Part shown: one piece after another, positions 1 to 3,000 of the stretch
Position numbering within the stretch: the first letter of the stretch is position 1
Layout: every line of letters starts with the position of its first letter
IMG/VR virus record: IMGVR_UViG_2654587588_000004
Location: 1 to 8,838 of that record
Source of the DNA: a virus
Taxonomy: Duplodnaviria; Heunggongvirae; Uroviricota; Caudoviricetes
Length of the DNA: 8,838 bases
Strand: one strand, 5' to 3'
Made by a program: the position numbers

Positions 1-3000
1 GAAGTCGCTGTCGTTTTCAAAATCGGTGGAGCTGCATGACAAAGTCATCGGGCATTATCTGAACATAAAACACTATCAATAAGTTGGAGTCATTACCGAC
101 TTTCTGACCAATTTTCTGAAATGTGTTCTCCGAATTTGGGCAAATAGAAAAAGGCCATTTCCATTCAGGGTCTGATGGAAATACTTCAGCCTGTTCCAAA
201 GCACGGCGTAAAGAGAACACAACTCCAGCCATAATCTGATGTTTCTCATTGGTCCAGCTATCGCCGCTCTGATCTACAGGGGCGGCTATGTCGTATGACC
301 AAACGACTTCACAGTTATTGTTTAAAATCTGGACTTTCATTTCATACACCTGCTTTAACATGAGTGCCTAGTGGCACAACATGACTCAACGAATCATCCT
401 GGACTTCATATGCCCCAGGCGGCTACTTCGTGGGCGTCCTGCCTGTTCGTTGTTTCGCTTGGGTACATTATGTATCTCAAAGGTACATTGTCAAGTATAA
501 AAAAACCTGCCGAAGCAGGTTCATAAACATTGATTAGGCTTTGATTTTGTATCTTCTTGGTTTTCCTGAGAAAATCACTGTACCAATTATAGAGCAATTA
601 CCGTTGATCTTAATGTAAGGCTCAGGCCAGTTTGGGTTTAACGCTTTGAGATAACGCTGTGTCCCATCTTCTATCAACCTTTTGAAGGTGGTTTCACCTG
701 TATCGTGCATCAATGCAATAACGTCGTCACCGTGGCAGGCAGGTACTTCAGGATCGACAAAAATCATGTCTCCCGGGCGGTACTCATCAATCATTGAATC
801 ACCTATCACCCGCAAGATATAAGTCATTTCCCCACAGGGTACAGGGCAGGGATACGTTTCTGCTGTGCTCAAATCAACCTCAGAATATCCAACTTCTTTC
901 CATGCTCCGGCCTGTACCCATGATATGACAGGGACTAATGTGATTTGTTTATTAGTGATTGAAACATCAGGTTTTTTTGTGATGTTCGTTGTCTGGTGTT
1001 CTTGATCGAGCCATCCGACAGGCAGGTCGAAACATTTTTCGATGTGTCGTGCCATGCTGTCACCGATATTTTTAGTAGCACCATCTCCCATAAACCTGCT
1101 GGTCTGGGTTGGCTCGCGATCAATCATAGTGGCAAAGGAAGAATTCCCGCCAACACCATCTCTCAGTTTTCTGGCGTTAGACCGCCGGATGTCATGGATT
1201 GTTTTCATAACGAAATTAAAACCCTTGTACCGTTAAGGTACAAGTATCTTGAAGGTTCATTTCAATCATGTAATATGTACACCGGAGGTACATATTGTAT
1301 GAAAGCGTATTGGGACTCTTTAACCAAAGAACAGCAGGGCGAGTTGGCCGGAAAAGTTGGCTCAACACCTGGCTACTTACGGCTGGTTTTCAATGGCTAT
1401 AAAAAAGCCAGTTTTGTGCTGGCTAAAAAACTTGAGCAATGCACGTCAGGTGCAATTACGAAATCTGACTTAAGACCGGATATCTATCCGAAAGATTAGC
1501 AGAACACTTTCATTTTTTAACCACAGAACGATGAGGCTAATTGTGGGTAAGCATCACTGGAAAATAGAAAAACAGCCTGAGTGGTACGTGAAAGCTGTCA
1601 GAAAAACTATCGCGGCGTTGCCGGGTGGTTACGCTGAAGCGGCTGACTGGCTCGATGTAACAGAAAACGCTTTATTCAACCGCCTTCGTGCAGATGGCGA
1701 TCAGATTTTCCCGCTGGGATGGGCAATGGTTTTACAGCGTGCTGGTGGCACTCACTTCATTGCTGATGCTGTGGCGCAGTCTGCAAATGGCGTCTTTGTG
1801 TCTCTTCCTGACGTCGAGGATGTGGACAACGCCGATATTAACCAGCGTCTGCTGGAAGTCATTGAACAGATCGGCAGTTATTCAAAACAGATTCGTTCAG
1901 CAATCGAAGACGGTGTAGTGGAACCGCATGAGAAGACAGCAATTAACGACGAGCTGTATCTCTCAATTTCGAAGCTGCAGGAGCATGCAGCACTTGTCTA
2001 CAAAATTTTTTGCATTTCAGAAAGTAATGACGCCCGCGAGTGTGCAGCTCCGGGCGTCGTGGCGTCGATTGCTTCTGGTTGTGGAGAAACTAACGCATGA
2101 ACAGTTTAACAACACACTACCGTCGCTCGCAACTGATTGCGCTTCCTGTTCCGGGTGGAAAAGCGAAGGTGGAATATTGCTATGCAGTGAATGTACCAGG
2201 TGACAGGGAAATTGTAACCCACAGCTTTGCAGAGTGGGCTGTGGGTGATTTCAACCGGCAGAAGGAGACAGTCCTTTGCGACAAGTTAACCGCTGGTTCA
2301 AAGATCACTACGGAGTGCCCGTCAGAGTCATTCGTTGGGAGTCGGAAACACAACGTGTTATCTACCTCCGCGAAGGCTATGAGCATGAGTGCTTCAGCCC
2401 GCTCGAACAGTTTCGTCGTAAATTCAGGGAAATAGAGGTCGGTCATGAGCACTAAATTAACCGGCTATGTATGGGATGGTTGCGCTGCATCAGGCATGAA
2501 ATTATCCAGCGTGGCAATTATGGCCCGCCTGGCTGATTTCAGTAATGACGAAGGTGTGTGCTGGCCATCAATTGAAACCATTGCCCGTCAGATTGGCGCG
2601 GGGATGAGTACCGTCAGAACGGCTATCGCACGGCTGGAAGCAGAAGGCTGGTTAACGCGTAAGGCGCGTCGCCAGGGTAACCGCAATGCGTCGAATGTTT
2701 ATCAGCTTAACGTTGCGAAGCTTCAGGCAGCGGCATTTTCTCAACTGTCAGATTCTGACCCGTCAAAATCTGACGCATCAAAATCTGACCCGTCAAAATT
2801 TGATGCGTCGAAATCAGGCAAAAAAGCGGGTTTTCACCCGTCAGAATCTGGCGGGGATCCGTCAGTAAAATCAAAACATGATCCGTCAGATAAAAAACCT
2901 TCTCGTCCGGACGCTTCGCAACCGGACACGCAGACGGCTGAACAGGATTTTTTAACTCGCCATCCTGATGCGGTTGTATTCAGCCCTAAAAAGCGCCAGT

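What the first reader, a model, noticed from the sequence alone, without database searches (positions are those of the whole stretch)
17..361. Unknown gene beside the repressor, first in the leftward operon, decapitated at its 3' end by IS1
A near-consensus leftward promoter (TTGACA-N16-CATAAT, 494-466) overlapped by GTAC-core repeats drives an ORF whose first 88 codons are native and AT-rich and whose last 26 codons are read from the IS1 terminus. In lambdoid phages the repressor-proximal leftward position holds N or, commonly, exclusion and defence cargo (rexAB, sieB and similar). I recognise no family for MLKQVYEMKVQILNNNCEVVWSYDIAAPVDQSGDSWTNEKHQIMAGVVFSLRRALEQAEVFPSDPEWKWPFSICPNSENTFQKIGQKV. 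The protein is not Arg-rich, so it does not look like an N-type antiterminator.
Basis: partly seen in the sequence, partly recalled or inferred. Interest (0 to 1): 0.55.

Follow-up and report, generated by a model that had tools for sequence, protein, structure and literature searches.

The report
Phage early gene clipped by IS1
The ORF is a real but uncharacterised early prophage gene (the phage SfV orf33 family) that has lost only its last ten codons to an IS1 insertion, and the same insertion destroys a previously unannotated partner gene that overlaps it on the opposite strand.

Summary
IS1's right end fills window 1-97. Native DNA starts at 98, and ORF 17-361(-) is 88 native plus 26 IS1 codons. 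An 11/12 sigma-70 promoter (494-467) overlaps TGTAC-N7-GTACA operators. Three refinements follow. The conserved start is M8 (ATG at 340, AGGTG Shine-Dalgarno). Intact copies are 91 aa, so only 10 codons are lost. GC is only mildly low (42-43%).

The gene is phage SfV orf33 (PHROG 3195, function unknown). About 40 protein clusters exist, all Enterobacteriaceae. No Pfam, NCBIfam, PADLOC, PDB or fold match was found.

Two things are new here. In every locus examined it lies just downstream of the prophage repressor on the same strand, beside many different repressor types. It is also always paired with an unannotated convergent gene, "X" (PHROG 3311), that overlaps its 3' end. Both genes show dN<<dS. 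IS1 landed inside the overlap, leaving only 16 codons of X at 98-147(+).

The protein is acidic (pI 4.8) and not N-like, and no test supports a defence role. My best reading, which is inferred, is an antisense-coupled module: orf33 is made early and X in the lysogen. This copy is a damaged remnant.

A covarying 69-nt leader RNA (385-453) sits beside the gene. It is widespread in phages, absent from Rfam, and independent of orf33.

The parts
1..97 (.). Right end of IS1, with the terminal inverted repeat at 75-97. It supplies the last 26 codons and the stop of the fused ORF.
   Evidence: Minus strand reads GGTAATGACTCCAACTTATTGA from position 97.
17..361 (-).
   Evidence: The identical product P0002 is on 4 public contigs.
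98..340 (-). Native coding part of the orf33-family gene counted from the conserved start M8: 81 of 91 codons. The C-terminal ALEEHQPTVS is missing.
   Evidence: dN<<dS.
347..351 (-). AGGTG Shine-Dalgarno sequence, 6 nt upstream of the M8 start codon.
   Evidence: Read directly. RefSeq places the start at this ATG.
98..147 (+). Remnant of the convergent partner gene X (PHROG 3311): its last 16 codons and the TAG stop at 145-147. The rest is cut away by IS1.
   Evidence: dN<<dS.
385..453 (-). Conserved structured leader RNA of the leftward transcript: a closing stem plus two hairpins. It is independent of orf33.
   Evidence: 97.2% of cells paired; 12 of 14 pairs with compensatory changes. One search gives 91.9 bits. 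No Rfam match.
467..494 (-). Leftward early promoter (pL-like), TTGACA-N16-CATAAT.
   Evidence: Identical in relatives.
451..487 (.). Two 17-bp operator-like sites (TGTAC-N7-GTACA type) at 451-467 and 471-487. They overlap the promoter spacer and the start of the transcript.
503..522 (-). Intrinsic terminator of the repressor gene, just upstream of the leftward promoter.
   Evidence: Annotated in SfV.
534..1208 (-). Prophage repressor, YmfK / SfV CI type, with a Peptidase_S24 domain.

Best explanation
Shown. The ORF is an IS1-damaged copy of the phage SfV orf33 gene (PHROG 3195). It encodes a 91-aa acidic, soluble protein. Its position is constant: in every locus examined it lies just downstream of the repressor gene on the same strand. 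Where the promoter could be located (SfV, E. coli and Salmonella types) it is the first gene of the repressor-controlled leftward early operon. It is one half of a conserved two-gene cassette. The other half, gene X (PHROG 3311, 76-84 aa, also acidic), is convergent and overlaps the orf33 3' end by 74-157 nt. X has its ribosome-binding site buried in a conserved hairpin.

Inferred. In a lysogen the repressor keeps the leftward promoter, and therefore orf33, off, while X can be expressed from the opposite strand. On induction or infection, strong leftward transcription makes orf33 protein first and at the same time runs antisense through X. That would shut X down by transcriptional interference and by a 3' RNA duplex. 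On this reading orf33 and X are an antagonistic pair that marks the lysogenic-to-lytic transition. X would be a lysogen-state factor and orf33 its early-expressed counterpart, probably acting by protein-protein binding rather than on nucleic acid.

In this window the cassette is dead or crippled. IS1 inserted inside the overlap. That removed the conserved C-terminal ALE motif of orf33 and separated all but the last 16 codons of X from this DNA.
For: Identity: PHROG 3195 at E=1.1e-68 over its full length and 97.8% identity to SfV orf33.

Real gene: dN 0.01-0.6 against dS 0.4 to saturated in the non-overlapped 60 codons. Twelve invariant residues across 21 sequences.

Position: immediately downstream of the repressor on the same strand in E. 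coli, SfV, K. aerogenes, Salmonella, Enterobacter, two metagenomic backgrounds, K. variicola and Yersinia. Within E. coli it sits beside at least five repressor types.

Promoter and operators.

Partner X: found by tblastn in every orf33 locus, covering 10 backgrounds and 80 of 80 IMG/VR loci retrieved through X. It occurs in the same 4 phage records as orf33. It shows dN<<dS. It has a Shine-Dalgarno-sequestering hairpin in all seven 5' UTR types, with compensatory changes: UCCUUUU/AAAAGGA, UCCUUCU/AGAAGGA, UCCUUA/UAAGGA.

Slot behaviour: with the same immunity region, e14 carries ymfJ and SfIV carries other genes on the opposite strand.

IS1 position inside the overlap.
Against: - No function is demonstrated for either protein. 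There is no family, defence-model, solved-structure or fold match.
- The AlphaFold models are poor (pLDDT 55 and 62).
- No convincing promoter for X was found, so its expression in lysogens is assumed, not shown.
- In the Enterobacter-type locus no consensus promoter separates the repressor from orf33, and a terminator-like hairpin lies 20 nt before its ATG. Repressor-controlled early expression is therefore shown only for the SfV, E. coli and Salmonella types.
- Between Enterobacter and Pseudescherichia, orf33 is nearly identical while X has diverged. That is not obviously what a tightly co-evolving binding pair would do.
- Frameshifted copies are recorded, including P0018 on 126 contigs. The gene is therefore dispensable for prophage carriage.
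Confidence: 0.35

Rival explanations
1. orf33 is a stand-alone early host-takeover or anti-defence protein. It would follow the logic of lambda Ral or Gam, or T7 Ocr: a small acidic inhibitor made first after induction or infection. X would be an unrelated moron that happens to sit next to it.
For: It has the first position in the repressor-controlled early operon. The protein is small, acidic and soluble, with conserved Trp, Pro and Phe surface-type residues. The slot after the leftward promoter is variable and holds unrelated cargo in e14, SfIV, ST64B and ZF40. Opposite-strand cargo genes occur in the same slot in SfIV and SfII.
Against: Co-occurrence and a fixed 3' overlap with X hold in every locus examined, across about 40-100% protein identity. 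That is hard to explain if the two are unrelated. There is no similarity to any known anti-defence protein or fold.
Confidence: 0.25
2. orf33 is exclusion or defence cargo expressed from the prophage, like rexAB or sieB.
For: Repressor-proximal positions often hold such cargo (general knowledge of lambda rexAB and sieB). GC is mildly low. In the Enterobacter-type locus the gene might be reached by read-through from the repressor gene.
Against: In this window and in SfV it lies behind a terminator and an operator-overlapped promoter, so it should be off in a lysogen. There are no PADLOC hits. There is no membrane segment, and GRAVY is -0.44. By orientation, X fits a lysogen-expressed role better than orf33 does.
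Confidence: 0.1
3. orf33 is a non-canonical N-analogue. It would be a protein antiterminator acting on the conserved leader RNA just upstream.
For: It occupies the position of lambda N. SfV, SfII and SfIV are reported to lack N (PMC3851460). A conserved structured RNA lies between promoter and gene. SfV's annotators placed a putative terminator downstream of orf33.
Against: The protein is acidic with 2% Arg and no N-family hit. The leader RNA occurs in many phages without orf33: e14, ST64B, ZF40, YeP1, SPN3UB, mEp237 and a T5-like phage. orf33 occurs without the leader RNA in L005, L008, L010 and L017. There is no second copy of the RNA in the rightward operon. My scan found no intrinsic terminator downstream of orf33 on its strand.
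Confidence: 0.05
4. The ORF is not a gene. It would be a chance open frame, or the antisense shadow of X.
For: It is short, has no family annotation, and partly overlaps another conserved ORF.
Against: dN<<dS in the 60 codons that do not overlap X. Protein-level conservation extends to 40% identity with invariant Trp, Pro and Gly positions. It has a Shine-Dalgarno sequence and a conserved start.
Confidence: 0.02

Closest known systems
Phage SfV orf33 (NP_599065; PHROG 3195)
   Same: Same gene at 97.8% identity. Same repressor, terminator, promoter and leader upstream.
   Different: The SfV copy is intact. The window copy lacks its last 10 codons and carries 26 IS1-encoded ones. No function is known for the SfV gene, which is annotated 'unknown'.
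E. coli K-12 e14 prophage ymfJ
   Same: It occupies the same slot behind an almost identical ymfK repressor, promoter and leader RNA. Identity with the window resumes at about 388.
   Different: The protein is unrelated (PHROG 12693). YmfJ-like N-termini are also first genes in Aeromonas phage pAEv1818 and Yersinia phage YeP1. YmfJ is also uncharacterised.
Lambda N / P22 gp24 antiterminators
   Same: First gene of the leftward early operon, next to the repressor.
   Different: N proteins are basic, Arg-rich and disordered, and they act on boxA/boxB nut sites in both early operons. orf33 is acidic, is predicted to be folded (beta-hairpin plus helices), has no N-family hit and has no paired nut sites.
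Repressor-proximal accessory cargo (lambda rexAB and sieB; Rac sieB, which I recall as convergent to the leftward operon)
   Same: Variable, non-essential genes near the immunity region. X, like Rac sieB, points against leftward transcription.
   Different: No sequence or model similarity. orf33 is behind the repressed promoter rather than in the repressor operon. Neither protein has a membrane segment.
HK022 putL antiterminator RNA (comparison for the adjacent leader element, not the ORF)
   Same: About 70 nt, a structured RNA that starts within about 10 nt of the leftward transcription start, in lambdoid phages without N (PMC9378689).
   Different: The architecture differs: a closing stem plus two short hairpins, against two long stem-loops in put. 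There is no match of my model in the HK022 early region and no second (putR-like) copy.

Membership tests
SfV orf33 family (PHROG 3195) | Full-length similarity to the family profile | tested here: met
   E=1.1e-68 over profile positions 1-98 of 98 for the intact relative. The window's native part is 98.8% identical over 82 aa.
SfV orf33 family (PHROG 3195) | Lies directly downstream of the prophage repressor on the same strand, opposite cro/cII-like genes | tested here: met
   Window: repressor 534-1208(-), ORF 98-340(-). The same layout holds in all loci examined.
SfV orf33 family (PHROG 3195) | Convergent partner gene X (PHROG 3311) overlapping the 3' end | tested here: met
   Only the last 16 codons of X remain at 98-147(+). 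X is full length in all intact loci.
SfV orf33 family (PHROG 3195) | Intact conserved C-terminal helix ending in the A-L-E motif (A82 invariant) | tested here: not met
   IS1 replaces residues 82-91. The copy is a truncated fusion.
Lambda N-type antiterminator | N-terminal arginine-rich RNA-binding motif; basic protein | tested here: not met
   pI 4.8, net charge -5, 2.2% Arg.
Lambda N-type antiterminator | Sequence membership of a known N family | tested here: not met
   No Pfam or NCBIfam hit at E<=1.
Lambda N-type antiterminator | Cognate nut sites in both the leftward and rightward early transcripts | tested here: not met
   Only one conserved leader element exists. It has no second copy in 8.8 kb, and it occurs independently of orf33.
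Prophage exclusion/defence cargo (RexAB, SieB and PADLOC families) | Similarity to a known defence protein model | tested here: not met
   PADLOC gives 0 families for orf33 and its long forms, and only noise for X.
Prophage exclusion/defence cargo (RexAB, SieB and PADLOC families) | Expressed in the lysogen (own promoter or repressor operon) | tested here: inconclusive
   The only promoter found upstream is the operator-overlapped leftward promoter, behind the repressor's terminator. The Enterobacter-type locus is ambiguous. No expression data were available.
Type II toxin-antitoxin pair (considered for orf33 + X) | Two small genes co-transcribed in one operon; homology to known TA families | tested here: not met
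   The genes are convergent, not co-directional. There are no TA family hits. Toxicity is not testable here.
HK022 put RNA (considered for the leader at 385-453) | Structured RNA immediately downstream of the leftward promoter | tested here: met
   The element begins about 10 nt after the predicted start, in every phage checked.
HK022 put RNA (considered for the leader at 385-453) | Similarity to putL, and a second copy (putR) in the rightward operon | tested here: not met
   Model R1 finds nothing in HK022 positions 23.5-32.5 kb and no second copy in any locus.
HK022 put RNA (considered for the leader at 385-453) | Factor-independent read-through of downstream terminators | not testable with these tools
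   Needs a reporter or in vitro transcription assay.

The most novel reading that the evidence does not exclude
orf33 and X form a previously unrecognised kind of prophage switch module. It would be a convergent, 3'-overlapping gene pair in which repressor-controlled leftward transcription both produces one protein and silences the other by antisense. A lysogen-state activity (exclusion, maintenance or toxicity) would then be disarmed at the moment of induction. The adjacent 69-nt covarying leader RNA is shared by N-less lambdoid phages of Escherichia, Shigella, Salmonella, Yersinia, Pectobacterium, Klebsiella and Aeromonas, and by a T5-like phage. It would be a new class of early-transcript RNA element, for example a put-like processive antiterminator.
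Probability: 0.15. Interest if true: 0.7.

Novelty: new variant of a known kind. Interest (0 to 1): 0.4.

Why it matters
As it stands in this window, the feature is a broken copy of a catalogued hypothetical phage gene, so its direct importance is low.

The comparative work adds three useful things.
1. About 6% of complete E. coli genomes (338 of 5,426), together with SfV-type Shigella phages, carry a conserved two-gene cassette. Gene callers normally annotate only one of its two genes.
2. The cassette's fixed place behind the repressor, next to many different repressor types, and its convergent overlap make a concrete hypothesis about coupling gene expression to the lysogeny/lysis switch. The hypothesis is cheap to test.
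3. The neighbouring leader RNA offers a candidate answer to how lambdoid phages that lack N (SfV, SfII, SfIV, ST64B, e14) manage early-operon transcription.

Tried and rejected
- Family searches. Pfam, NCBIfam and PADLOC on orf33, its long forms and X gave nothing above noise.
- Solved-structure sequence search with both family profiles. Only beta-propeller-blade-like local matches to the N-terminal hairpin (Scone, PQQ) and noise. I rejected these as homology.
- Structure prediction. Two AlphaFold2 runs (5- and 21-sequence alignments) gave pLDDT 55 and 62.
- Exhaustive HMMER and two profile searches found only about 40 clusters for each gene, all named 'hypothetical'.
- The genome-contig scan returned just one locus.
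- Rfam gave nothing for the leader. It gave a sub-threshold STnc100 hit only in intact relatives.
- Single-sequence folding of the leader was unremarkable (z = -0.6). The structure emerged only from comparison across phages.
- A CA GGC/GCCUG first hairpin suggested by the window sequence alone was rejected, because it is not conserved.
- Apparent inverted copies of the leader inside ymfK (I1 and I5) were rejected as non-colinear chance matches.
- No convincing promoter for X was found by scan or by eye.
- The SfV genome paper (PMC134923) is not held. Literature searches for orf33 and ymfJ found no functional data.
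Full report
**What is in the window**

The window is an e14/SfV-type lambdoid prophage early region. It holds a LexA-like S24 repressor (534-1208, -), a YdaS/Cro-like gene (1299-1499, +) and a CII/CP76-type gene (1531-2100, +). Replication, Dam, RusA, KilA-N, DUF968 and Q-like genes follow.

The window is in fact an entire 8,838-bp draft contig (JHQY01000104.1, GCA_001265185.1). It ends in IS1 on both sides. 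The IS1 right end fills 1-97 and an IS1 left end begins at 8743.

**Check of the observation**

- ORF 17-361(-) of 114 codons exists.
- Homology to intact relatives starts at 97/98.
- The minus strand reads ...CAGAAAGTC|GGTAATGACTCCAACTTATTGA. I recognise the second part, from my own knowledge, as the IS1 terminal repeat. So 88 native plus 26 IS1 codons is right.
- The promoter TTGACA-N16-CATAAT at 494-467 is an 11/12 match. It is overlapped by 17-bp TGTAC-N7-GTACA sites at 451-467 and 471-487. Two perfect copies lie by the rightward promoter at 1226-1242 and 1276-1292.
- The repressor gene's terminator (503-522) lies directly upstream of the promoter.

Three corrections apply.
1. The conserved start is the second ATG, at 340. 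RefSeq uses it. It has an AGGTG Shine-Dalgarno sequence 6 nt upstream. Divergent homologues begin MKVQ.
2. Intact copies end ...KVALEEHQPTVS, so only ten codons are lost. The loss does include invariant A82.
3. GC is 42-43%, against 44-45% in the adjacent immunity genes and 50% for the whole window. The AT bias is mild.

**Identity**

The gene is orf33 of Shigella phage SfV, at 97.8% identity. SfV annotates it 'unknown'. It belongs to PHROG 3195, 'unknown function' (E=1.1e-68).

About 338 of 5,426 complete E. coli genomes carry the region at 80% coverage or more. None has this IS1 junction. The fused product is on four draft contigs.

An exhaustive HMMER scan of 1.8 billion representative proteins and a profile search found only about 40 clusters. 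The named members come from Escherichia, Salmonella, Klebsiella and Enterobacter, and all are called hypothetical. Pseudescherichia and Yersinia copies turned up.

Nothing else matched.
- Pfam, NCBIfam and PADLOC gave nothing.
- PDB sequence matches were limited to a propeller-blade-like beta-hairpin.
- AlphaFold2 models were poor, at pLDDT 55 and 62. They show a beta-hairpin at residues 2-17 and helices at 34-52 and 74-83.
- The models found no fold neighbours.

The protein is acidic (pI 4.8, net charge -5) and has 2% Arg. Its invariant residues include Trp, Pro and Gly.

**It is a real gene with a fixed address**

In the 60 codons that overlap nothing else, dN is far below dS in every pair where dS could be estimated. 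Examples are 0.29/1.65, 0.19/0.75 and 0.014/0.41.

In every background examined the gene lies directly downstream of the repressor on the same strand, opposite the cro and cII-like genes. The backgrounds are:
- SfV and E. coli;
- K. aerogenes;
- Salmonella, where an HSDR_N gene sits in the repressor operon ahead of the leader;
- Enterobacter and Pseudescherichia;
- two metagenomic types;
- K. variicola;
- Yersinia.

Within E. coli, near-identical copies sit beside at least five different repressor types. Conversely, the same ymfK immunity region is joined to the unrelated ymfJ in K-12 e14, and to other genes on the opposite strand in SfIV. This is therefore a mosaic slot behind the leftward promoter. 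In the window the boundary lies at about 388.

**The missed partner gene**

Every orf33 locus also carries a convergent ORF, which I call X. It is 76-84 aa and acidic (pI 4.7), and it belongs to PHROG 3311, 'unknown function'. Its 3' end overlaps the orf33 3' end by 74-157 nt.

- Co-occurrence is complete. It holds in ten backgrounds, in 80 of 80 IMG/VR loci retrieved through X, and in the same four phage records.
- X also shows dN<<dS in its non-overlapped 50 codons.
- X is unannotated in SfV and in the RefSeq genomes I checked. The likely reason is that gene callers keep only one of two overlapping ORFs.
- All seven 5' UTR types of X fold so that the Shine-Dalgarno sequence is paired. The pairing shows compensatory changes: UCCUUUU/AAAAGGA, UCCUUCU/AGAAGGA, UCCUUA/UAAGGA, and a different long helix in the Enterobacter type.
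- No promoter for X could be identified.

In the window, IS1 landed inside the overlap. Only the last 16 codons of X remain, at 98-147(+).

**How it most likely works**

Shown:
- orf33 is the first gene behind an operator-controlled promoter in the SfV, E. coli and Salmonella types.
- X faces it and overlaps it.
- Both genes are under purifying selection.

Inferred:
- In a lysogen orf33 is off and X can be made.
- On induction, leftward transcription makes orf33 and runs antisense through X.
- The two genes would therefore form an antagonistic, antisense-coupled pair that marks the switch.

I put this at about 0.35. The main rival, at 0.25, is that orf33 is an independent early takeover or anti-defence protein and X an unrelated moron.

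It is weakened by repressor control, by the absence of defence-model hits, and by the lack of any membrane segment.

An N-analogue role gets 0.05. It is weakened by the protein's chemistry and by the independence of the leader RNA described below.

Caveats:
- In the Enterobacter-type locus no consensus promoter lies between repressor and orf33, and a terminator-like hairpin sits 20 nt before the ATG.
- Frameshifted copies are on record, one of them on 126 contigs.

**The leader RNA (adjacent to the finding, not part of it)**

Between promoter and ORF lies a 69-nt element at 385-453(-). It is conserved beside different repressors and in front of different first genes.

It occurs in SfV, SfII, SfIV, ST64B, mEp237, mEp460, SPN3UB, ZF40, YeP1, and in Klebsiella and Aeromonas phages. 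It also occurs in the terminal repeat of a T5-like Providencia phage. In the temperate phages with an annotated repressor that I fetched, it lies just after the repressor gene and its promoter.

I proposed a structure of a closing stem plus two hairpins and tested it on 18 sequences.
- 97.2% of cells are paired, against 72.8% in shuffles.
- 12 of 14 pairs show double changes.
- Slid controls give 21-45% paired.

Rfam has no match. A covariance model finds exactly one copy per phage locus. It finds none in the HK022 put region and none in four orf33 loci. The element is therefore independent of orf33 and is not a put homologue.

The SfIV paper states that SfV, SfII and SfIV lack N, cII and cIII homologues (PMC3851460). 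This keeps a put-like role for the RNA attractive, but that role is untested.

**Verdict**

The gene is a catalogued but uncharacterised phage gene, and this copy is a damaged remnant in an IS1-riddled prophage fragment.

The added value is the obligate convergent partner, the fixed address behind the repressor, and the neighbouring structured RNA. I rate interest at 0.4, and the feature as a new variant of the known kind 'accessory cassette in the repressor-proximal slot'.

Noticed in passing
window 385-453 (- strand): A 69-nt structured leader RNA at the 5' end of the leftward early transcript: closing stem, GGC-AGGAC-GCC hairpin, conserved CACGAAGUAGCC linker and a second 5-bp hairpin. Covariation is strong (12 of 14 pairs). 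It is present in many temperate Enterobacterales and Aeromonas phages and in a T5-like Providencia phage. It is not in Rfam, has one copy per locus, and is independent of orf33. It is a candidate put-like or RNA-stabilising element.
   Followed up: partly
window 98-147 (+ strand); intact in L001 5805-6050: Remnant of an unannotated convergent gene X (PHROG 3311) that overlaps the orf33 3' end in every relative. IS1 cut it at about codon 65 of 81.
   Followed up: yes
window 8743-8838, and ORF 8426-8764 (+): The right end of the window is an IS1 left end (GGTGATGCTGCCAACTTACTGAT...). It truncates a DNA methyltransferase ORF (N6_N4_Mtase) and supplies its last codons. The 8.6-kb prophage segment is thus bounded by two IS1 copies in the same orientation, and the contig breaks at both.
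   Followed up: partly
L001 5503-5717 (- strand); absent from the window: In intact relatives a sub-threshold match to the sRNA family STnc100 (42.1 bits against a gathering score of 47; E=1.8e-7) lies further down the leftward operon. RefSeq calls this GC-rich stretch a frameshifted hypothetical protein.
   Followed up: no
L001 5749-5768 and equivalents: A nearly invariant hairpin, ACCAC-N8-GUGGU, with a conserved GCCUGUCUUUU lead-in sits just upstream of X in E. coli, Salmonella, Klebsiella and metagenomic loci. It is more conserved than the coding sequences around it. Its role is unknown; it could be a terminator, a processing site, or part of the X 5' UTR.
   Followed up: partly
L107 2163-2438 (Aeromonas phage pAEv1818) and L103 2598-2858 (Yersinia phage YeP1): The first genes after the leader RNA in these phages share the N-terminal motif of E. 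coli e14 YmfJ (LKHVIALLLEDAKR..EPNAGTEAR). Each is followed by a convergent small ORF. YmfJ-like proteins are therefore an alternative occupant of the same slot, with a similar convergent layout.
   Followed up: no
L006 3552-4706 (Salmonella prophage): A 384-aa HSDR_N-domain gene sits between the repressor and the leftward leader RNA, in the position of lambda rexAB. It is a likely lysogen-expressed defence-type moron.
   Followed up: no
window 430-446 (+ strand): On the strand of gene X, the complement of the leader RNA scores as a terminator-like hairpin with a T-rich tail (GTGGGCGTCCTGCCTGT TCGTTGTTTC). It could stop X-direction transcripts before they enter the operator and repressor region.
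   Followed up: no
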